64,000 bases of DNA from the human T2T-CHM13v2.0 reference genome, Homo sapiens: positions 44,064,001 through 44,128,000 of the forward strand of contig CP068257.2 in the NCBI GenBank assembly GCA_009914755.4, in the 5' to 3' direction. The notes under the pieces were generated by a model, which was not told the DNA's origin, made no database searches, and saw only the letters and a program-made list of their open reading frames with translations. Numbering within the stretch: the first letter of the stretch is position 1; each line of letters opens with the position of its first letter. This document shows positions 5,239 through 52,915 of the stretch, piece after piece. The position numbers and the translations under genes were made by a program.

Positions 5239-5601
5239 TGTATTAGTCTGTTCTCACACTGCTAATAAAAACATGCCTGAGAATGGACAATTTACAAAAG
5301 GAAGAGGTTTAATTGAAGGACTCACAGTTCCACATGGCTGGGGAGGCCCTCACAATCATGGCAGAAGGTGAAAGGCATGTCTCACATGGCAACAGACAAG
5401 AGAAGAGAGCTTGTGCAGGGAAACTCCCTGTATAAAACCATCAGATCTTAAGAGACTTATTCACTGTCACAAGAATAGCATGGGAAAGACCCACCCGCGT
5501 GATTCAATTATCTCCCACCAGGTCCCTCCCACAACATGTGGGAGTTTCGGGACCTACAATTCAAGATGAGATTTGGGTGGGGACACAGCCAAACCATATC
5601 A
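5239..5601 (-). mobile_element. MaLR LTR of THE1/MST type, with about 150 bp of probable MaLR internal sequence to its right (5601-5760).
   Basis: The reverse complement begins tgatatggtttggctgtgtccccacccaaatctcatcttgaattgta… and ends …tattagcagtgtgagaacagactaatacac. This matches the THE1-family LTR consensus as I recall it. Confidence 0.75.
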
Positions 5602-25127: not shown

Positions 25128-25497
25128 TGATATGGTTAGGCTTTGTGTCCTCACTCAGATCTCATCTTGAATTGTAATCTCCATTACCCAAAATCCACAC
25201 ATGTCAAGGGCAGGACCAGGTGGAGGTAACTGGATCATGGGGGTGATTTTCCCCATGCTGTTCTCGTGATAGTGAGTGAGTCTCACGAGATCTGATGGTT
25301 TTATAAGCATCTGGCACTTCTCCATCCTGCCACTCTGTTAAGAAGGTGCCTGCTTCTCCTTTGCCTTCTGCCGTGATTGTAAGTTTCCTGAGGCCTCCCC
25401 AGCATTGTGGAACTGTGAGTCAATTAAACTTCTTTTCTTTATAAATTACCCAGTCTCAGGTATTTCTTCATAGCAGTGTGAGAATGGACTAATACAC
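25128..25497 (+). mobile_element. MaLR LTR of THE1/MST type, followed by about 270 bp of likely MaLR internal sequence (25498-25770).
   Basis: tgatatggttaggctttgtgtcctcac…atctcatcttgaattgtaatc…tgggggtgattttccccatgctgttctcgtgatagtgagtgagtctcacgagatctgatggttttataag…ccttctgccgtgattgtaag…ggcctccccagc..tgtggaactgtgagtcaattaaacttcttttctttataaattacccagtctcaggtatttcttcatagcagtgtgagaatggactaatacac. Confidence 0.8.
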
Positions 25498-28806: not shown

Positions 28807-30398
28807 TTACAGATGTTTTTTGCACTTTTCTGTTCTTTCCAGCTTTCTGCACAGAGAGCTGGCATGTGTTTGGCAACCAGGGGACACATAGGCATCCTAG
28901 AGAGTGGCTCTGAGCACATGGCCTGCCGTCTGCGGCCTAGTGGCCTGCTCTCGAGGGAGGCTCTGGGGCAGGCCTCTGAAGAACTAATTCTCCATCAGGG
29001 ATTGGTGATCATATGGGCAGTTGTCTAGAGAGTCTAGCAGATATATTTTAGGCAACTTCACTACCCTGGTGAGAGGCCAGACAGACTTCCTATGTCTAGT
29101 TCTGATAATGAGAGTGACCCATTCAGAAAAGGGTTAAGTAAAAATAGTGAATTTTAAAATTTTAATAAGTTCATGTACTAACTGACATTGAAACAAAAAT
29201 CATTTCGTAAATCATTACAAGTTGATAGTGAGTAAAGCCCATCAGTGTAATTTTGTAAGATTGAAACATGGGTATATGTATCTATATTGACACATACCTG
29301 AAGTATGATCTATCTTAGATATGAAAGTGAAATAAAAAGTACACATTGTGGGCAGATACTGAGTGTCTGGAAGGAGGGAAGGGGCTGCTGTCCCAGCAAG
29401 GGAGCACAGCCCGCACAACACGCAGGTTGGATGCCAGGCCCGGGGTCGAGCTCAGGGTCTGTGGGATCTGCATTCCCTGGCCTTGTCAGTCATGTCATGG
29501 CCATGCCACTTTTGAGGTGGAGGAGTAAAGAAGTTCACCTGCTGACTGCTTCCTTCTTTTTCCGCTGAGACCATCACCGAGAGTGGTAATTATTTATAAT
29601 AGAAATGGTGATTACTGGTGGATTCTGTGATAGGAATTAAGTTGAATCTTCCTTGCCCGTCCTCCTCCAGCATAAGCTGTTTTAAATTCTAGCTCCCCCA
29701 CATCCTGCTTCTTGTTGGCACTGTAAAACTCTCAATTCACTCACCTGGAGGGGGTAAGTTAATGAGACACTCTCTCCCCCAGATCTGGAGAAATTCAGAG
29801 TCAAGGCTGTCCCCCTCCTGAAGTCAGATCCTTCCTGTGGCCTATTTAGGTTTTAGGTAAAAACATAGCATTTGCTCATTTTCCTTTATTGAGATATGTT
29901 GAAGTCTGAGCTCCTATTAACACATTTATCGAAAATGGAACCTATGAGCAAATTCCTAGGAGCTGCATTTCCAGGGGTGTCCAGCTGTGACCCACCCCGC
30001 CCCCTCCCGGTGTTACCCTGAGTTATGAGAATGCAGTCTTTGGAAGTGGTGGGCTAAAACACTCCACAGGGTGGTGCATGGGGGCTGCCCACACTCCCTG
30101 CTGCTTTCTGCTCTCTGCTTGTTCATCCTCTCCCAACGGGGCAGCCCCAGAAGCCAACACTGCATGTTGGAAGGAGTCCCAGCCCTGCCCCTGCCAAGCG
30201 AGGTGGGGACAGCTGGGAATCTCGCTGCCTTCATGGTGGCGGGCCAGGCTGCTCTGTAACACGAACATTAAAACTGATTTGAGGTGTTAGCGGTGTCACT
30301 GTAAGTGTGAGAATGAGAAGCGGTGTGAGACGTGTAGATTTGTGGGCAGTGATGGGGAACAGCAAGGGTGGGGTGCCTCGGTGGGATCTGAAAGAGAA

Positions 30399-30464
30399 CC
30401 CGCCCCCCTCAGCTGGAGTGGCACTCTGTAACCCGCCCCCCCTCAGCTGGAGTGGCACTCTGTT
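30399..30464. repeat. Tandem duplication of two copies of a 33-bp GC-box-containing unit (cccgccccc(c)tcagctggagtggcactctgt).
   Basis: cccgcccccctcagctggagtggcactctgtaa (30399-30431) is followed by cccgccccccctcagctggagtggcactctgtt (30432-30464). The ccgcccc core is an Sp1-like GC box. Confidence 0.85.
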
Positions 30465-30932
30465 GGCTGTTGTTTTCAGGCTGTTGGGCCGTGAGGCTGC
30501 TTTGGTCTGAGAAAGTGGGTGGCAGGAGGACAGGACGGCCTCTCTGTGAGGGAGGCACTGACTCTCAGGAGATGCTGTCATTGGGATACTACAGTATTCC
30601 ATGAACTTCCTCTATAACTTAAATGATGAAAGTTACAGATAATAGCTCAAATAAACTGTTGTGAGCCGTTAAGTATGGCAGTTTGTATCATGGTTAAATC
30701 TGCAGAAGGTGTAACATTTTGCTTGGGTTTTTTTTTGCCTTATTACTGGCCGTGTTTTAAAAATATCTTTCTTATGAAGAAATTCTGTCGTGGCTGTGTG
30801 ATTTCCCCTGCGATGCTAGGATGTGTTTGCAAACCAGTGGCAATGCCAGAGCCTGGGCCCTGGGCTGCGGTGCGTTGGCTGGGTGTGGTCTGTGGTAGCT
30901 TCCACCTGCTGCCTGCGCTTGGGAAGTGCCCT

Positions 30933-30977
30933 GACCTCTGAGCAGATGACCTCTGAGCAGATGACCTCTGAGCAGAT
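30933..30977. repeat. 15-bp tandem repeat of three copies (gacctctgagcagat).
   Basis: gacctctgagcagat gacctctgagcagat gacctctgagcagat ggtttctgatgg. Confidence 0.9.
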
Positions 30978-32489
30978 GGTTTCTGATGGTGGTTTTTTTT
31001 CTGATTAATTGAATTACAAGTATCCTGTGGTAGGTACAGGGTTTTCCCTTTCCCTTGTCCAATAAATCTTAACTTCATTCTGTGATTTTTAGAAAAGGAA
31101 GAATGCCCACAGATGTGGAGGCACAGATGCCCTGGGCCTCGCAGCAAGCTTGTCCTTAACAACCCATTCTCCTTCAGGCCCTGCCACTTAGGGAGAAGAC
31201 TGTGGGGGCAGTGCCTGCCTGTCCTCTCTCCATTAAGCCTCTGCTGGGGGCCTGCCTCCACAGTGCTCTTCCCGGTCTCAGAGTGGCAGGGGACACACAG
31301 GCAGGGTTCTTACCACCATGGAGCTTATTTCTGGTGGGTGGAGGGAGGGCCCACAACCAAAGAAAGTGACTTACAAACACAGCAGGCACATGCTACATGG
31401 AGAGCAGGGAGGCTGAGCAGGAGTGGCTGAGGGGCTGCCTGGAGGGTGGGCAAGGGAGGACTTTCGGAGGAGGAGGTGTTGGAACTGGGTGGCAGGGGGG
31501 AGCCAGGCATGTGTCTAGGCAGGAGGCGTGCATGGAGCAAAGACCTGATGGAGGAAAGGAAGGGGTGGGGGGCAGCTGGGGTGAGGAAGCCAGTGCAGGA
31601 GATGAGGTCAGGAGAGCAGGCCCCCTCTAGGAGGTCAGGTGTCACCCTCAGGGCAGTGGACAGCATGGCCCCAGGCCCCACTGCAGAGGCTCGCCCTGGC
31701 TGTGGGGAAGGCACTGGGGTGCAGGTTTGGTACGGAGGCCGCAGGTGCCCAGGCAGTGTGGTTAGGCCTGCTGAGATGTGGTGCGTGCCGAGGCTGCCAA
31801 TGGGACTGGAAGGAGGACTCAGACCTGACTCCGAGGGGCCTGAGCAACTCAGGCAGGATGACGTGGGGAGGATCAGGTCCAAGGTAGGAGGGGTTAAGGA
31901 TTTGGTCTTGGACTTCAGGTAATAGACGTCCAAGTGGCTTGGCCAGGTAGGCAGTGGATATGGGAGTTCATGGGGGAGAGCAGGGGCAAGGAGATTAATT
32001 TAGGAAATTATCAGCAGAGAAAGAGAGCATGGCTATGGACTGGGTGGGCTCATCTAGGGGAGAGGAGCAGAGGTCCAGGCCCAACACCCAGGGGCCTGTG
32101 GCTGGAGCCCAGAAGAGACTGGTGTGGTTGGAACTCCAGGTGGGGCTTGCTCCACTCTATCCTGGGTGCTCATGCCCCAGATCTCTGTGTGCTCAAGGAG
32201 CGTTGGCAGCATCCTGACCCGCCCTGCTCACATGCCCCATCCCTGCTTTCCCCTGTCAGTGGGTTGCAGGCCCATGATCCCGCCAGGCCTGTCCATCTGT
32301 CCCTGTGTCGCAGACAGTGCCAACCTTCCCTGATGTTTGTGTCTCCCGCCTGAGGCCTGCCTGTGTTTCCAGTGTCTTCCACCACGGCATTCAGGATGTG
32401 GAGGACAGTGACCCGCGTGTGGCTCCCATGGCTGGCCTGGCTGGTCTGGAAAGCATGCGTTCTGCTTTCCTGGCCAGATCGTCTTTTCA

Positions 32490-38892: not shown

Positions 38893-39559
<667 letters not shown>

Positions 39560-42223: not shown

Positions 42224-42327
42224 AGAGAGACGGCATGGGGAGTTGGCAGGGGGAGGCCCTCGGAGAGATGGCATGGGGAGTTGGCAGGGGGAGGCTCTCG
42301 GAGAGATGGCATGGAGGGGTTGGGGCC
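42224..42327. repeat. 39-bp tandem repeat of about 2.7 copies (gagagatggcatggggagttggcagggggaggc.ctcg).
   Basis: agagagacggcatggggagttggcagggggaggccctcg / gagagatggcatggggagttggcagggggaggctctcg / gagagatggcatggaggggttggggcc. Confidence 0.9.
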
Positions 42328-44373: not shown

Positions 44374-45560
44374 CCTCACCCCTTCCTGTCCATGGCCCCC
44401 TGGGTAGCCCCCCCATCTTCATCAGCCCACCCCTTCCTGTCCATTGTCTTCTGCGTGGCCCCTCCCATCTTCATCAGCCCACCCCTTCTTGTCCATGGTC
44501 CTCTGGGTGGCTCCCCCATCTTCATCAGCCCACCCCTTCCTGTCCACGGTCCTCTGGGTAGCCCCCCCATCTTCATCAGCCCACCCCTTCCTGTCCACGA
44601 TCCTCTGGGTGGCCCCCCCATCTTCATCAGCCCACCCCTTCCTGTCCACGGTCCTCTGGGTAGCCCCCCCATCTTCAGCCCACCCCTTCCTGTCCACGGT
44701 CCTCTGGGTGGCCCCACCATCTTCATCAGCCCACCCCTTCCTGTCCACGGTCCTCTGGGTAGCCCCCCATCTTCATCAGCCCACCCCTTCCTGTCCGCGG
44801 TCCTCTGGGTGGCCCCCCCATCTTCATCAGCCCACCCCTTCCTGTCCATTGTCCTCTGGGTGGCCCTCCCCCATCTTCATCAGCCCACCCCTTCCTGCCC
44901 ATTGTCCTCTGGGTGGCACCCCCCATCTTCATCAGCCCACCCCTTCCTGTCCATGGCCCCCTGGATGGCCCCCCCATCTTCATCAGCCCATCCCTTCCTG
45001 TGCATTGTCCTCTGGGTGGCCCCTCCCATCTTCATCAGCCCACCCCTTCCTGTCCATGGTCCTCTGGGTAGCCCCCCCATCTTCATCAGCCCACCCCTTC
45101 CTGTCCACGGTCCTCTGGGTAGCCCCCCCATCTTCATCAGCCCACCACTTCCTGTTTGTCCATGGCCCCCTGGATGGCCCCCCCATCTTCATCAGCCCAC
45201 CACTTCCTGTTTGTCCATGGCCTCCTGGGTGGCCCCCCGATCTTCAGCCCACCCCTTCCCGTCCATGGTCTTCTGGGTGGCCCCTCCCTTCTTCATCAGC
45301 CCATCCTTCCTGTCCATTGTCCTCTGGGTGCCCCCCCGCCATCTTCATCAGCCCACCCCTTCCTGTCCATTGTCCTCTGGGTGGCCCCTCCCATCTTCAT
45401 CAGCCCACCCCTTCCTGTCCATTGTCCTCTGGGTGGCCCCCCCATCTTCATCAGCCCACCCTTCCTGTCCATTGTGCTCTGGGTGGACCCCCCATCTTCA
45501 TCAGCCCACCCCTTCCTGCCCATGGCCCTCTGGGTGGCCTCCCCATCTTCATCAGCCCAC
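44374..45560. repeat. Minisatellite/VNTR with a 51-bp unit (17 codons), about 23 copies over about 1.2 kb. It is GC-rich (about 65%) with approximately one CpG per unit, often decayed to TpG/CpA.
   Basis: The repeating unit is cttcatcagcccaccccttcctgtcca(c/t)ggtcctctgggt(a/g)gcccccccat. The periodicity is visible from the spacing of the tcttcatcagcc landmarks at 44469, 44520 and 44571…. Variants include gtccacgg, gtccatgg and gtccattg. Because the unit is a multiple of 3, it produces the 396 and 405 aa pseudo-ORFs in the track. Confidence 0.95.
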
Positions 45561-46322: not shown

Positions 46323-46552
46323 GTGCGTGTGTGTGTGCATGTGAGTGTGTGTGTGGTGTGTGTAGTGTGTGTGTGTGTGTGTGTGTGAAGTGTGTGTGCA
46401 TGTGTATTTACCCACACAGGTCTGTGTGTACACATGCGTGTGTGTATGTGTGTGCAGGTGAGTGTGTATATAGGTGTGCACGCATGCGTGTGTGTGTGGA
46501 AGGTGTGTGCATGTGTGTGTGGTATGTGTGCATCTGTTATATGTGTGTGTGT
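46323..46552. repeat. Compound imperfect (TG)n/(GT)n microsatellite of about 230 bp, interspersed with gca/gag interruptions.
   Basis: gtgtgtgtgtgcatgtgagtgtgtgtgtggtgtgtgtagtgtgtgtgtgtgtgtgtgtgaagtgtgtgtgcatgtg…gtgtgtgcatgtgtgtgtggtatgtgtgcatctgttatatgtgtgtgtgtt. Confidence 0.9.
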
Positions 46553-49343
46553 TGAGGGGACTGAGAAGTGAGTTTCTTGTGTTGCAGACAGTGCCCCCAC
46601 GTCTTGGGAATGGCGTTACTGTGCAGCTGAACATGGGGAGGCAGTAGAGATACGGTTGACATAGGAAAGCTGTGGAAAGCTTGTCTGAGAAGGAGTCAGC
46701 CTCTCAGCCCTCTCCTACCCAGTCTGGTTCCTCCCTGGAAGGTGACTTGGGAGCCTGCCCTGCGGTGGGGGACTGTCCTAAACGGAAAGCAGGGCACGGG
46801 ATGGCTTCACTCCAGCTCCTCCTTATTTGGCCCCAGAGCACTGGGAACCTAGGAACAGACACAGGAGGGAGGGAAAGGAGCCACTTGGTGGGTGAGGAAG
46901 CTGGACGCTGGGGCCCTGGGGCGTGGCTCCAAGAAGGGCTGGAGGGTGATGTCGGGATGAGTGGGTCTGCAGTGGTCGGCCCCATGGCTAGGAGTTTGGA
47001 AAGAAATCAACCTAAGTTCATAGAACACCAAAGAAAGCAGTGGGGAGGCCCTTATTCACTGTGAGAAGCAGAAACATTGTGCAAGAAGGGAGCTGCAGCA
47101 TCAGGTGTGGGTACCAGGTGCACAGCCAGCGAGGGGAGTCCTGGAAAGTGGGGAGGAGGGCGAGGTAGGGGCTCAGGAGAGTCAGTGCTCATCTTTTATA
47201 GCAGGAAGCTAACAGCTGATACATAAAGTTGTAAGATCAAGAATAGCAATACAAACTCAGTAATTAGAAATATGGAGATAAAGAAATGCCAAAAGAGGCT
47301 AAGAGCTCAGGGAAGGATTGTGATGTAGGGGGCAAGGGAGGGGTAGGGCCACTGCTTTTCATAAGCTTTATCGAATTATTTGCTTTTAAAAACTGTGTAT
47401 ATTTATAGTTTTATTAAAAATAAAAAATTTTAAAGGTTATATGGCAAATATTATTTTATAAAAAATTGATGAACCTCAGGCCCTGAGCTCCCTTGCTTGC
47501 CCTGCTCCTGCCAGGGCAGACTTCCACTGCCCTTGCCCTCTGGTCCTCTCCACTTCAGAGGCCCGGCCTCTGGCTTGGTGAATCTGAGGCAGATCTTTCT
47601 CCTCAGGTTGCTTGAGCTCTGCAGCGTTAGGCCTGGTGAGCGCCTCTTGCCCAGTGCCCTGGGGGCGGTGGGGAAATTCCAGTCCAGACTGTCTGCCTCA
47701 GGCATTCAGTACACACTTTCGTGCCCTGCTTTTTAACTGAATAGTATTCTGCAAAGTGTTCGACCTTACCTAGTTTGAGAACATTATTTTTAGAAGGTTG
47801 CATGGTTTCCCATGTTGTGGATCTAGGTATCATTTATTGGATTATTCCCTTTTTGTTTATTTTTTCTGATTTTCCACTAATATCCATAATACGAGGTAAA
47901 CACCCTTGTGCATAAATCCACAGCAGCTTCCTCTCTTTTGTAGGCAGTGTTCACACCTACAGAATTCCTGGGTCAGAGGACATGGACATTTAAAAGAGGC
48001 ATAATGTGTAATTGCCAGGTTGATCTCAAAAGTGCAAGTTTGTACTTGAACAAGGCTGTACCAGAGTGCCTGTGCTGTTGTATCCTGACACACCAGGTAC
48101 TGCATACGTCTCCATCTCGAAATGCAGAAGCACACTGAACACACATGGCTTAGCTCTTTAACAATAATGTCGTTTTCCCCCATGCTCATAAGCATTCTTG
48201 CATTATTGAAGATACTCTGCTTTTATGTCTGTGGGAGGAATTTTCCCCAGTTGAGTCGTGCACTTTTTCATCTGATCTGTAGCATTTTGGGTAGCTCGCT
48301 CAGTATTTTCCGTTGTGATGTTGTCTCTTATTGTGTTTACATTTAGAAAATCCTTTTCTTGGGATTTAATTAGGTGTATGTTCTTAGGTGAAGATCTAAG
48401 TTATTTTTTCTTATATTAGAAACACCATTTATTCAAAATACTTCATTTTTCTAATGATTCATGCTGCAACTTTTTATGTATGTGTACCACATATGAAAAT
48501 ATTGTGTATTTTAGTGTCTGTTTCTGAATTCTCTAATTGACCTCTTTGTTCTAGTGCTGGTACACTGTTTTAATTATTTTAGTTTCACGATATATTTCCA
48601 TATCTGATAAAGGTAACCAATATTTCAAAAAATATTTTGGTTATTCTTGGCTACCTACTTTCTAAATGAACTTTAGAATGATTTTCAAGTTTAAAAAGTT
48701 AATCATATTGAGGTTTCTTTTCAAATGGATCAGATCTATAATTTAAATTATAAACAGCTGACATTTTAACAATATTTAAATAGTTTCCTATATAGAAAGG
48801 GAATCTGTCTTTCCATTTATTCTGTTATTAGCCTTCAGTTACATTTCATAGCTTTCTTGCTGTAGGTTTTATCTTTCAAATTTTTTTCCAACTAATTTGT
48901 GTTATTTGGTTATTGTAATTGGGATTTTTCCCATTGCATTTATCAAATATTTAACATTATATAGGAAAACTATCAGTTTTTATATATTTGAATGTGGTCA
49001 CATGTTAAAATGGTTTTATTTGCAAAAGGGTTTTCAGGTGAAATTTGACTTATTTTTACCTTGACCCAACATTCACCATGAAGTATGCTCCCTGTAGCTC
49101 TCTGGTATATATTCTTCATTAAGCTACAGAAGTTTTCTTTTATTGCTATTTATTAAGTTACGTGTTTTTTAAAATCAAAAAAGTTGCATTTCACTAAATG
49201 TGTTCATTGCTACTATTTAGGTGGTTGTATGATTCCTGCTTTTGTCTCTCAATGGAGTGAATTCTGTTCCTGACATTCCAAGTGTTGATTCTTGGAATAA
49301 ACCCCGTTAGGCCATAGCTCTTCCAATTATAATATGCTCCCAG

Positions 49344-49500
49344 TATCTTATTGGGACTAGAATAAGGGTTAATAATAGGGTTAGGGCTAGAGTTAAGGCT
49401 AGCATAAGGGTTGGAGTTACCGTTAGTGTTCGAGTTATTGTAAAGGTTAGGATTAGGGTTACTGTTAGGGTTATCGTGAGGGTTATGGCTAGGGTGATAG
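49344..49500 (+). repeat. Degenerate interstitial telomere-like array of about 26 hexamers derived from (TTAGGG)n, with the G-rich strand on the plus strand.
   Basis: taagggttaataatagggttagggctagagttaaggctagcataagggttggagttaccgttagtgttcgagttattgtaaaggttaggattagggttactgttagggttatcgtgagggttatggctagggtgatagtg. It has strict 6-bp periodicity with ttaggg, tagggt and tgaggg variants. Confidence 0.75.
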
Positions 49501-49931
49501 TGCTCTATAAGGTTCTTTTTTTTCTAATTTTTATATGATTTTGGCAATAAATGATAGCTTGCTTTCATAACATGATTTGAGAATTGTCCCATGTTTTTCT
49601 ATCCTTTAAATAACAAATTTTTCTGTCTTCTGTTTAGAAATGCAAATGTTATCAGCCTTCGATAGAATTCTACCTTTAATAGAATTCGTCTATCAAAGCT
49701 GCTAAGCCTGGAGCCTATTTTGGAGACTGATTTTTTAGTGTCTATATAATTTCTACCATGGTTATTGATTTTATACACATTTTCTTATACACCAATGGTT
49801 TTTGCTTAGGAAACAGTCAGTTTTAAGCAAGTTTTTAGGTATATAGGTAAAAATGTGTATATGTTTTATATATATATATATACATATGTATGTATATAAC
49901 ATATATATGTTGTGCTCGTCATTTTTCAGTC

Positions 49932-51639: not shown

Positions 51640-52915
51640 TGCCACACGGTGTTGTGTCAGCATCGCTGTGTCAGTCCATTGACGTAGCGCCACACGGTGT
51701 TGTGTCAGCATCGCTGTGTCAGTCCATTGACGTAGCGCACACGGTGTTGTGTCAGCATCGCTGTCAGTCCATTGACGTAGCGCACACGGTGTTGTGTCAG
51801 CATCGCCGTGTCAGTCCACTGACGTAGCGCACACGGTGTTGTCAGCATCGCTGTGTCAGTCCATTGACGTAGCGCACACGGTGTTGTGTCAGCATCGCTG
51901 TCAGTCCATTGACGTAGCGCCACACGGTGTTGTCAGCATCACTGTGTCAGTCCATTGACGTAGCGCACACGGTGTTGTCAGCATCGCCGTGTCAGTCCAT
52001 TGACGTAGCGCACACGGTGTTGTCAGCATCGCCGTGTCAGTCCATTGACGTAGCGCACACGGTGTTGTCAGCATCGCCGTGTCAGTCCATTGACGTAGCG
52101 CACACGGTGTTGTCAGCATCGCCGTGTCAGTCCATTGACGTAGCGCACACGGTGTTGTCAGCATCGCCGTGTCAGTCCATTGACGTAGCGCACACGGTGT
52201 TGTCAGCATCGCCGTGTCAGTCCATTGACGTAGCGCACACGGTGGTGTCAGCATCGCCGTGTCAGTCCATTGACGTAGCGCACACGGTGGTGTCAGCATC
52301 GCCGTGTCAGTCCATTGACGTAGCGCACACGGTGGTGTCAGCATCGCCGTGTCAGTCCATTGACGTAGCGCACACGGTGGTGTCAGCATCGCCGTGTCAG
52401 TCCATTGACGTAGCGCACACGGTGGTGTCAGCATCGCCGTGTCAGTCCATTGACGTAGCGCACACGGTGGTGTCAGCATCGCCGTGTCAGTCCATTGACG
52501 TAGCGCCACATGGTGGTGTCAGCATCGCCGTGTCAGTCCACTGACGTAGCGCACACGGTGTGGTGTCAGCATCGCCGTGTCAGTCCACTGACGTAGCGCA
52601 CACGGTGTTGTGTCAGCATCGCCGTGTCAGTCCACTGACGTAGCGCACACGGTGTTGTGTCAGCATCGCCGTGTCAGTCCACTGACGTAGCTCACACGGT
52701 GTTGTGTCAGCATCGCCGTGTCAGTCCACTGACGTAGCTCACACGGTGTTGTGTCAGCATCGCCGTGTCAGTCCATTGACGTAGCTCACACGGTGTTGTG
52801 TCAGCATCGCCGTGTCAGTCCATTGACGTAGCGCCACACGGTGTTGTCAGCATCGCTGTGTCAGTCCATTGACGTAGCGCACACGGTGTTGTCAGCATCG
52901 CTGTGTCAGTCCATT
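51640..52915. repeat. CpG-rich minisatellite/VNTR with a 45-bp unit (47-48 bp in edge variants), about 28 copies over about 1.28 kb. It has about 58% GC, 5 CpG per unit (observed/expected above 1), and every unit carries ccattgacgtagcgc (a TGACGTAG motif).
   Basis: The unit is tgtcagcatcgccgtgtcagtccattgacgtagcgcacacggtgt. The period of 45 is confirmed by the spacing of the tgtcagcatc landmarks at 52021, 52066 and 52111. Variant blocks are ggtgttgtcagc (about 51900-52240), ggtggtgtcagc (about 52240-52500), and ggtgttgtgtcagc with ccactgacg and tagctcaca (about 52500-52800). It produces the in-frame 202 and 205 aa pseudo-ORFs. Confidence 0.95.

What the first reader, a model, noticed from the sequence alone, without database searches (positions are those of the whole stretch)
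51640..52915. CpG-rich 45-bp minisatellite carrying about 28 tandem TGACGTAG (CRE/ATF half-site-like) motifs, with block-wise variant homogenisation
Each 45-bp unit (tgtcagcatcgccgtgtcagtccattgacgtagcgcacacggtgt) has 5 CpGs, which is about 140 CpGs in 1.28 kb. The observed/expected CpG ratio exceeds 1 in an otherwise CpG-depleted window. The array is therefore a repeat-built CpG island. Every unit contains ttgacgtag, so the array presents about 28 evenly spaced TGACG half-sites (the ATF/CREB-type core), spaced every 45 bp, which is roughly 4.3 helical turns. Units are organised in consecutive blocks of distinct variants (ggtgttgtcagc, then ggtggtgtcagc, then ggtgttgtgtcagc with ccactgacg and tagctcaca). 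That pattern is the signature of repeated unequal crossover or gene conversion. Retention of CpGs implies the array is either young or kept unmethylated in the germline. Candidate roles are a methylation-sensitive regulatory element, an insulator, or a polymorphic VNTR. No function can be asserted from sequence alone.
Basis: seen in the sequence. Interest (0 to 1): 0.62.

Follow-up and report, generated by a model that had tools for sequence, protein, structure and literature searches.

The report
CpG-rich minisatellite at a THE1 LTR edge
This is a real but ordinary primate minisatellite: a 45-base unit, made of 31 bases of host DNA plus the last 14 bases of an old THE1 retroviral LTR, was copied about 28 times, and its CpG-island look and its "CRE-like" motifs are by-products of that copying, not evidence of a regulatory element.

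Summary
The array is at 51643-52915, with period 45, 27.8 copies and 96% matches. It carries 27 TGACGTAG motifs (not 28) and 125 CpGs (not about 140). Its CpG O/E is 1.18, against 0.22 for the rest of the window. Variant units sit in blocks: 12 of 26 neighbouring units are identical, against 2.7 expected.

The LTR's terminal 14 bp (TGTGTCAGTCCATT) and its 5-bp target-site duplication are inside every repeat unit. The array was therefore born at the host/LTR junction after the LTR inserted.

The T of each TGACG comes from the LTR end and the GACG from host DNA. The motif exists only because of the tandem junction. The array has no full CRE and only one CTCF-like site.

Each unit also carries an imperfect 11-12-bp hairpin, and it is strongest in the amplified unit types.

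Four of six substitution sites fall in CpGs, which points to methylation-type decay rather than protection. Recent homogenisation is enough to explain the CpG richness.

No coding, RNA or homology evidence was found, and the locus could not be named.

Verdict: an ordinary, probably polymorphic VNTR. A regulatory role is not supported, but these tools cannot exclude it.

The parts
51643..52915 (.). 45-bp minisatellite, 27.8 copies (one 38-bp partial unit plus 27 full units of 45-48 bp)
   Evidence: TRF; unit dissection. The unit occurs nowhere else in the window (blastn).
51643..51956 (.). Left edge: a partial unit plus six heterogeneous units (types G D C E D H). Five of the six carry GCTG (or GC-deleted) instead of GCCG, and hairpins are weaker.
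51957..52226 (.). Block A: six identical 45-bp units (GGTGTTGTCAGC)
52227..52496 (.). Block B: six identical 45-bp units that differ from A by one T>G (GGTGGTGTCAGC), which strengthens the unit hairpin
52497..52824 (.). Mixed 46-47-bp units (types I J C C K F F) with the TG insertion, CCACT and AGCT variants
52825..52915 (.). Right edge units L and E, of the same old type as the left edge. The last 14 bp double as the end of the LTR.
52902..53260 (-). THE1-family (ERVL-MaLR) solo LTR, 359 bp. Its 3' end (in LTR sense) is the TGTGTCAGTCCATT found in every repeat unit.
   Evidence: Two further copies in the window at 73-75% identity. The alignment shows those copies start TGTATTAGTCCATT exactly where the array ends. 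Identity is 80-83% to RepeatMasker-labelled THE1A/THE1B segments printed in the supplement of PMC3389668.
52897..52901 (.). Left target-site duplication ATCGC, present in every unit as GCATCGC
   Evidence: Read from the sequence. The control copy at 25128-25481 has a perfect 5-bp duplication, GTATG.
53261..53265 (.). Right target-site duplication ATTGC (4 of 5 match; the difference is a CpG to TpG change)
   Evidence: chance of at least 4 of 5 matching is about 0.016
52012..52037 (+). Example of the per-unit imperfect hairpin ACACGGTGTTG-TCAG-CATCGCCGTGT; one per unit, every 45 bp
52502..52516 (-). The single CTCF-core-like site CCACCATGTGGCGCT (1 mismatch), made by three variant changes in unit 19 only

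Best explanation
This is a non-coding GC-rich minisatellite (VNTR) in a primate, probably human, genome. I infer its history as five steps.

(1) A THE1 LTR retrotransposon inserted and was reduced to a solo LTR flanked by a 5-bp target-site duplication.

(2) Later, a segment of about 45 bp spanning the junction was duplicated in tandem. It comprised about 31 bp of host DNA, including the duplication ATCGC, plus the terminal 14 bp of the LTR.

(3) The array then grew and was repeatedly homogenised by replication slippage, unequal sister-chromatid or interallelic exchange, and gene conversion. This left two recent runs of six identical units in the middle and older, more diverged units at both edges.

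(4) Each unit contains an imperfect inverted repeat. It can fold into an 11-12-bp hairpin on the + strand and plausibly promotes slippage. The unit types that amplified are those with the most stable hairpin.

(5) The CpG-island composition follows automatically from amplifying a 45-mer with 4-5 CpGs faster than CpGs decay. The 27 TGACGTAG motifs are the repeat junction (T from the LTR, GACG from the host) copied passively.

The array most likely has no sequence-specific function. It is probably methylated like the surrounding DNA and length-polymorphic in the population.

Shown: the anatomy, the origin at the LTR junction, the block structure, the hairpin potential, and the absence of coding or RNA signals. 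Inferred: the mechanism of expansion, methylation state, polymorphism and lack of function.
For: - The period, copy number and identity come from TRF.
- The host is a primate: 11 Alu-core matches against 0 expected, plus THE1, which is a primate-specific MaLR family (PMC6102241).
- The LTR is complete only if the array's last 14 bp are counted. Both other in-window copies begin TGTATTAGTCCATTCTCACACTG, and the array end reads TGTGTCAGTCCATTTTCATACTG. THE1B consensus numbering, extrapolated from position 298 at 52968, puts the consensus end near 52902.
- The target-site duplications are ATCGC and ATTGC.
- The left flank has GACAGTGCCACACGG where the units have GACGTAGCG(C)CACACGG, and it has no TGACG.
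- Block order is non-random: 12 of 26 neighbours are identical, and 0 of 100000 permutations match that.
- Edge unit types recur at both ends, and type C occurs at positions 3, 21 and 22.
- Hairpin: + strand dimers fold at -20 and -21.8 kcal/mol, z about -3.5, with 0 of 200 shuffles as stable. By unit type, A, B, C, F, J and K give -7.4 to -8.4, and D, E, G, H, I and L give -4.6 to -6.1.
- CpG O/E is 1.18 here, 0.13 in the neighbouring GC-richer 51-bp array, and 0.21-0.38 in the flanks.
- Four of six substitution sites lie in CpGs (p=0.025).
- There is no Pfam family above cut-off for ORFs in or near the array, no protein homologue, no Rfam family and no exon-like ORFs.
- About 23% of human minisatellites/satellites are TE-derived (PMC3389668), and GC-rich VNTRs with long units are common and hypervariable (PMC7608644).
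Against: - Nothing here measures methylation, chromatin, transcription or allele length, so 'no function' is a default, not a result.
- Thousands of human VNTRs do associate with local expression or methylation, and those tend to be GC-rich (Garg et al., bioRxiv 10.1101/2020.12.16.423078).
- The link between hairpin strength and amplification rests on 12 non-independent unit types.
- The polarity of the variants (which state is ancestral) rests on the LTR consensus and the edge units, not on an outgroup species.
- Similarity of the left flank to a decayed unit is weak: 28 of 500 shuffles score as well.
- No PRDM9 13-mer lies within 4 kb, so a meiotic-hotspot driver is not supported.
Confidence: 0.8

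Rival explanations
1. Methylation-sensitive regulatory array. In this view the array is an unmethylated CpG island whose 27 TGACG half-sites recruit CREB/ATF-family bZIP proteins and act as a copy-number-dependent enhancer or promoter.
For: - There are 27 half-sites in 1.27 kb, against 20 (TGACG or CGTCA) in the other 62.7 kb.
- The array meets the CpG-island composition criteria.
- A minority of VNTRs are eQTLs or mQTLs, and GC-rich ones are enriched among the mQTLs.
Against: - The array has no full CRE, and none within one mismatch.
- The half-site is created by the LTR/host repeat junction, so its presence needs no selection.
- CpG-biased variation among units suggests germline methylation. 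By established knowledge, methylation of the central CpG blocks CREB binding.
- No exon, promoter island or gene was found within the window.
- The 45-48-bp spacing gives no helical phasing.
Confidence: 0.08
2. Oocyte-methylated, possibly imprinted, CpG island downstream of an LTR promoter. In this view the THE1 solo LTR starts a transcript in oocytes that runs through the adjacent array. Transcription-coupled de novo methylation then makes the array a maternal germline DMR.
For: - In LTR sense the array begins at the last base of the LTR, so any LTR-initiated transcript must cross it.
- THE1 LTRs do initiate transcripts in human oocytes. CpG islands embedded in such transcripts become methylated, and some persist as placental DMRs (PMC6102241).
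- This copy lacks the TTTAAT (ATTAAA in LTR sense) that both other in-window copies keep at the aligned position.
Against: - This is positional only; there is no expression or methylation data.
- Most THE1 copies are silent.
- Only 2.7% of methylated CpG islands in human oocytes overlap LTR-initiated transcripts.
- This island is not a promoter of any gene seen here.
Confidence: 0.03
3. Protein-coding tandem repeat (15-residue repeat, mucin-like or similar), because 45 is a multiple of 3 and one frame on each strand is open.
For: ORFs of 205 aa (+) and 202 aa (-) run through the central 45-bp units.
Against: - The ORFs end where units of 46-48 bp shift the frame, so they cover only 12-13 units.
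- No Pfam match reaches the cut-off.
- The - strand ORF has no homologue among 5.8 billion proteins, and the + strand ORF is not on record.
- Part of each unit is LTR terminus.
Confidence: 0.01
4. Array of CTCF sites acting as an insulator or boundary element.
For: One site, CCACCATGTGGCGCT, with a single mismatch to the core, lies in unit 19.
Against: - The other 26 units have no match within 2 mismatches.
- The mismatch is at a conserved G of the core.
- Window-wide, 10 matches were found against 6 expected, which is not enriched.
Confidence: 0.01

Closest known systems
Classical GC-rich human minisatellites / VNTRs (e.g. MS32/D1S8, MS205/D16S309, CEB1)
   Same: Units of tens of bp in head-to-tail arrays of about 1 kb. 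High GC. Interspersed variant repeats with blocks of identical units. Edges more diverged than the interior. From my own knowledge, not checked here: MS32 also lies in a retroviral LTR-like element, and MS205 has 45-54-bp units.
   Different: Germline instability, polarity and population polymorphism are demonstrated for those loci and untested here. No PRDM9-type motif was found nearby. This unit is unusually CpG-dense. No sequence identity to a named minisatellite could be checked.
TE-derived tandem repeats (Ahmed & Liang 2012, PMC3389668)
   Same: Part of each unit is transposable-element sequence. Initiation and expansion happened after an individual TE insertion. One terminal unit is incomplete, which is a feature of the slipped-strand initiation model quoted there.
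   Different: Only 14 of 45 bp are TE-derived, and the unit spans the TE/host junction including the target-site duplication. That survey counted arrays lying inside or similar to TEs. The array was not found in the stored (truncated) part of their table.
Repeat-built CpG islands / CpG-rich VNTRs that act as methylation QTLs (Garg et al., bioRxiv 10.1101/2020.12.16.423078)
   Same: A GC- and CpG-rich tandem array that meets CpG-island criteria. Such arrays can influence local methylation in proportion to copy number.
   Different: No association, methylation or expression data are available for this array.
cAMP response element (CRE, TGACGTCA) clusters
   Same: Shares the TGACGT core, including the methylation-sensitive central CpG.
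   Different: Not palindromic (TGACGTAG). Not near a detectable promoter. The motif originated as a duplication junction rather than as a conserved site.

Membership tests
Minisatellite / VNTR | Head-to-tail tandem units of about 10-100 bp | tested here: met
   Period 45, 27.8 copies, 96% matches
Minisatellite / VNTR | Internal variant repeats arranged non-randomly (homogenised blocks) | tested here: met
   12 unit types; 12 of 26 neighbours identical against 2.7 expected
Minisatellite / VNTR | Copy number varies between individuals | not testable with these tools
   No human or primate assemblies are available. Scans of the microbial and viral collections gave only chance single matches.
CpG island (Gardiner-Garden & Frommer composition criteria) | At least 200 bp, GC at least 50%, CpG O/E at least 0.6 | tested here: met
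   1273 bp, GC 57.8%, O/E 1.18
CpG island (functional sense) | Unmethylated in the germline; associated with a transcription start | not testable with these tools
   There are no methylation or transcript data. Indirectly, 4 of 6 substitution sites are in CpGs, and no gene was found nearby.
cAMP response element | Palindromic TGACGTCA | tested here: not met
   0 exact matches in the window, and no match within 1 mismatch inside the array
cAMP response element | Half-site TGACG/CGTCA | tested here: met
   27 in the array
cAMP response element | Occupied by CREB/ATF, unmethylated, promoter-proximal | not testable with these tools
   No ChIP or methylation data
CTCF-site array (insulator) | CTCF core motif in the repeat unit | tested here: not met
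   Only unit 19 matches, with 1 mismatch; the other units do not match within 2
THE1 (ERVL-MaLR) solo LTR | Sequence similarity to THE1 LTRs | tested here: met
   83% over 111 bp to an annotated THE1B segment and 80% over 114 bp to THE1A; 73-75% to two other copies in the window
THE1 (ERVL-MaLR) solo LTR | TG...CA termini, about 350-365 bp, 5-bp target-site duplication, no internal region adjacent | tested here: met
   359 bp. In LTR sense it runs TGATATGG...GACACA. Duplications are ATCGC/ATTGC, 4 of 5. Subfamily not determined.
TE-derived tandem repeat | Repeat unit contains TE sequence | tested here: met
   The 14-bp LTR terminus is in every unit, 12 of 14 identical to the in-window LTR consensus
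Protein-coding repeat | One reading frame open across the array, with homologues or domains | tested here: not met
   The frame is broken by 46-48-bp units, and there is no Pfam match or homologue

The most novel reading that the evidence does not exclude
The array may be a CpG island manufactured by repeat expansion directly downstream (in LTR sense) of a THE1 solo LTR that has lost its ATTAAA signal. If that LTR fires in oocytes, the read-through transcript would methylate the array. It would then be a primate-specific, copy-number-variable maternal germline DMR, that is, a VNTR-sized imprint created entirely from junk.

A second, weaker reading is that variants which stabilise the unit hairpin (T>C creating the fifth CpG, and T>G in block B) are preferentially amplified. 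CpG gain and expansion would then be mechanistically coupled.
Probability: 0.04. Interest if true: 0.6.

Novelty: already known. Interest (0 to 1): 0.15.

Why it matters
As it stands the finding matters little. It is one of tens of thousands of GC-rich VNTRs in a primate genome, of a kind already catalogued and mechanistically understood.

It has two modest uses. First, it is a clean worked example of how a minisatellite is born at a transposon/host junction, with the target-site duplication fossilised in every unit. Second, it is a caution that motif arrays and 'CpG islands' inside tandem repeats need no selective explanation. Here the TGACG motif is literally the duplication junction.

If the array proved to be an unmethylated CREB-bound element, or a maternal germline DMR whose size varies between people, it would be a candidate cis-regulatory VNTR worth genotyping.

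Tried and rejected
- Related sequences elsewhere. Exact-pattern scans for GTCAGTCCAYTGACGTAGC gave 7 loci in metagenome contigs, 1 in genome contigs and 0 in viral contigs. All were single chance matches with no similarity to the window beyond the motif. These collections hold no primate DNA.
- Protein route to orthologous arrays. The - strand array ORF has no homologue, and the + strand ORF is not on record. I ran no further search on the + ORF.
- Naming the locus. I found no ORF with a Pfam family, no exon-like ORF by a codon-usage score and no Rfam family. The locus and nearest gene remain unknown.
- Literature. Unit sub-sequences appear in no paper as a repeat. VNTR catalogues either hold no supplements or do not contain the unit, and one paper is not held. 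A search for a printed THE1 consensus found nothing. The family name rests instead on annotated THE1 pieces in a supplement.
- PRDM9 13-mer as a driver. The nearest matches are at 47329 and 57655, and none lies in the LTR or flanks.
- Decayed repeat units in the left flank. The similarity is not significant; 28 of 500 shuffles score as well.
- Also rejected: the CTCF array, the coding repeat, and G-quadruplex potential (the unit has no G run of 3 or more, read from the sequence).

Full report
OBSERVATION

Tandem Repeats Finder reports a single array at 51643-52915 with period 45, 27.8 copies, 96% matches and score 2145. I cut the array at GACGTAG. That gives one 38-bp partial unit and 27 full units: 16 of 45 bp, 3 of 46, 7 of 47 and 1 of 48.

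TGACGTAG occurs 27 times in the array. A 28th, unrelated copy lies at 57468. The array holds 125 CpGs, with GC 57.8% and O/E 1.18. The rest of the window has O/E 0.22. No other 500-bp window passes GC>0.5 and O/E>0.6.

The block structure is also right. There are 12 unit types in the order GDCEDH-AAAAAA-BBBBBB-IJCCKFF-LE. Twelve of 26 neighbouring units are identical, against 2.7 expected, and none of 100000 permutations reaches that number.

HOST AND SURROUNDINGS

The window is primate DNA. An Alu core 23-mer matches 11 times against 0 expected. The window also carries THE1 elements, a primate-restricted MaLR family (PMC6102241).

I found no sign of a gene:
- ORFs of 110 aa or more look non-coding.
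- A codon-usage scan ranks the two minisatellites themselves highest.
- Ten candidate ORFs have no Pfam family above cut-off.
- Rfam finds nothing at gathering thresholds in all 64 kb.

The locus could not be named.

The region is minisatellite-rich. It has a 51-bp x 23 array at 44377-45560, a (GT)n tract and a decayed TTAGGG-like tract. This is the kind of GC-rich VNTR neighbourhood described for subtelomeric DNA (PMC7608644), but that placement is only a guess.

The 345 bp immediately right of the array match two other places in the window (5254-5601 and 25128-25481) at 73-75% identity.

In the three-way alignment, both other copies begin TGTATTAGTCCATTCTCACACTGCTATGAAGA. The array's last partial unit plus its flank read TGTGTCAGTCCATTTTCATACTGTTATGAAGA. 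So the dispersed repeat is complete only if the last 14 bp of the array are counted, and those 14 bp are present in every repeat unit.

The copy at 25128-25481 has a perfect 5-bp target-site duplication (GTATG), which fixes the element's ends. Applying the same ends here gives an element at 52902-53260 (359 bp). It is flanked by ATCGC on the left, inside each unit as GCATCGC, and by ATTGC on the right. Four of five positions match, and the difference is a CpG to TpG change. The chance of at least 4 of 5 matching is about 0.016.

The element is a THE1-family LTR in minus orientation. It is 83% identical over 111 bp to a RepeatMasker-labelled THE1B segment and 80% over 114 bp to a THE1A segment. 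Both segments are printed in the supplement of Ahmed & Liang 2012. Their consensus numbering puts position 298 at 52968, and I recall a THE1B length of about 364 bp, which I could not verify here. Together these put the consensus end at about 52902.

A solo LTR with its duplication, plus an array whose unit is [31 bp host flank ending in the duplication][14 bp LTR terminus], means the array arose at the host/LTR junction after the insertion.

CONSEQUENCE FOR THE MOTIF

In each unit the T of TGACG is the last base of the LTR-derived CCATT, and GACG starts the host-derived part. That adjacency exists only in the tandem arrangement. At the true LTR the same CCATT is followed by TTCATACTG. At the left edge of the array the host sequence reads GCAGACAGTGCCACACGG, without TGACG.

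The motif is therefore a duplication junction, possibly plus small changes, that was copied passively 27 times. It differs from the palindromic CRE at two positions. No site in the array is within one mismatch of TGACGTCA. A CTCF-like core occurs only in unit 19.

HAIRPIN

Each unit contains an imperfect inverted repeat: ACACGGTG(T/G)TG, loop TCAG, CATCGCCGTGT.

| Test | Result |
|---|---|
| Two-unit + strand DNA | -20.0 and -21.8 kcal/mol; z about -3.5; 0 of 200 shuffles as stable |
| Two-unit - strand DNA | Unremarkable; z -0.8 to -1.4 |
| Single units, types A, B, C, F, J, K | -7.4 to -8.4 kcal/mol |
| Single units, types D, E, G, H, L (edges) and I | -4.6 to -6.1 kcal/mol |

The inverted repeat spans the host/LTR junction. 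Two changes strengthen the stem. One is T>C, which makes GCCGTGT and also creates the fifth CpG. The other is T>G, which defines block B.

I read this as a plausible slippage promoter and a possible amplification bias. The unit types are few and not independent, so this is inference.

CpG CONTENT

The neighbouring 51-bp array is GC-richer (63.5%) but has CpG O/E 0.13. The flanks are at 0.21-0.38 and the LTR at 0.22. The CpG richness is thus a property of this particular unit, not of the region.

Among the six substitution sites that distinguish units, four fall in the 10 CpG positions of the 45-bp unit (binomial p=0.025). The unambiguous losses (CACGG>CATGG, ATCGC>ATCAC) are singletons.

I used a per-generation CpG transition rate of about 1.1e-7 and a 29-year generation; these are my own figures from the human mutation-rate literature. 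On those figures a methylated CpG has a half-life of tens of millions of years. The observed 5-10% loss corresponds to roughly 6-13 Myr since the units last shared an ancestor.

CpG retention therefore needs only recent homogenisation, which the identical-unit blocks show directly. It does not imply germline hypomethylation, and the CpG-biased variation points the other way.

Taking the LTR consensus and the edge units as ancestral, the three widely spread variants are all weak-to-strong changes: T>C in 19 units, T>G in 7 and T>C in 7. This is compatible with GC-biased conversion, but there are too few sites to test it.

MECHANISM AND RIVALS

The best-supported account is a neutral, junction-born minisatellite. 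It is expanded and homogenised by slippage, unequal exchange and conversion, helped by a per-unit hairpin.

This fits what is known. About 23% of human minisatellites/satellites derive from transposable elements. An incomplete terminal unit is a feature of slipped-strand initiation models (PMC3389668).

I could not support a meiotic-hotspot driver, because no PRDM9 13-mer lies within 4 kb.

- The regulatory rival keeps some prior. Thousands of VNTRs are expression or methylation QTLs, and GC-rich ones are enriched among the methylation QTLs (bioRxiv 10.1101/2020.12.16.423078). Nothing in this sequence argues for it beyond the motif count.
- A more interesting untested possibility follows from the anatomy. 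In LTR sense the array starts at the last base of a THE1 LTR. THE1 LTRs initiate transcripts in human oocytes that methylate embedded CpG islands (PMC6102241). This copy lacks the ATTAAA-equivalent that both other copies keep.
- The coding-repeat and CTCF-array readings are rejected.

NOVELTY AND VERDICT

The feature is real, and its structure is as described. Its kind is well known, and the specific functional suggestions are not supported by the sequence. The added value of this second look is the origin at the THE1/host junction, the junctional nature of the TGACG motif, the hairpin, and the argument that CpG retention does not require hypomethylation. I score interest at 0.15.

Noticed in passing
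window 44377-45560: A second minisatellite: 51-bp unit, 23 copies, 89% matches, GC 63.5% but CpG O/E only 0.13. It has strong C-over-G strand asymmetry (GC skew -0.37 in the 44-46 kb bin) and long open frames (396-405 aa) with no Pfam match.
   Followed up: partly
window 49360-49502: A decayed TTAGGG-like tract of about 140 bp (GGGTTA/GAGTTA/GGCTAG hexamers in 6/12-bp register, 3 exact TTAGGG). It may be an old interstitial telomere-like sequence, 2.1 kb left of the array.
   Followed up: partly
window 5254-5601 (+) and 25128-25481 (-) relative to the query orientation: Two more THE1-like LTR copies, 73-75% identical to the one at the array. The second has a perfect 5-bp target-site duplication, GTATG. 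The first shows none, so it may belong to a longer element.
   Followed up: partly
window 52502-52516 (-): A single near-consensus CTCF core, CCACCATGTGGCGCT, created in unit 19 by the coincidence of three unit variants (C insertion, CpG>TpG, T>G).
   Followed up: yes
window 46323-46553: A (GT)n microsatellite of about 37 repeats, followed by TG-rich degenerate 15-24-bp repeats.
   Followed up: no
window 42225-42323 and 30397-30463, 30932-30978: Short G-rich tandem duplications: 38 bp x 2.6, 34 bp x 2, and a perfect 15 bp x 3.1. They lie in the two other GC-rich stretches of the window (30-32 kb and 40-46 kb), neither of which is a CpG island.
   Followed up: no
window 38974-39559: TRF reports a 314-bp 'repeat' of 1.9 copies, which is two adjacent Alu elements in the same orientation. 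At least 11 Alu cores are present in the window.
   Followed up: partly
window 52960-52985: The THE1 LTR next to the array lacks the TTTAAT (ATTAAA in LTR sense) that both other in-window copies have at the aligned position. From memory this is the LTR's polyadenylation signal; I did not verify that.
   Followed up: no
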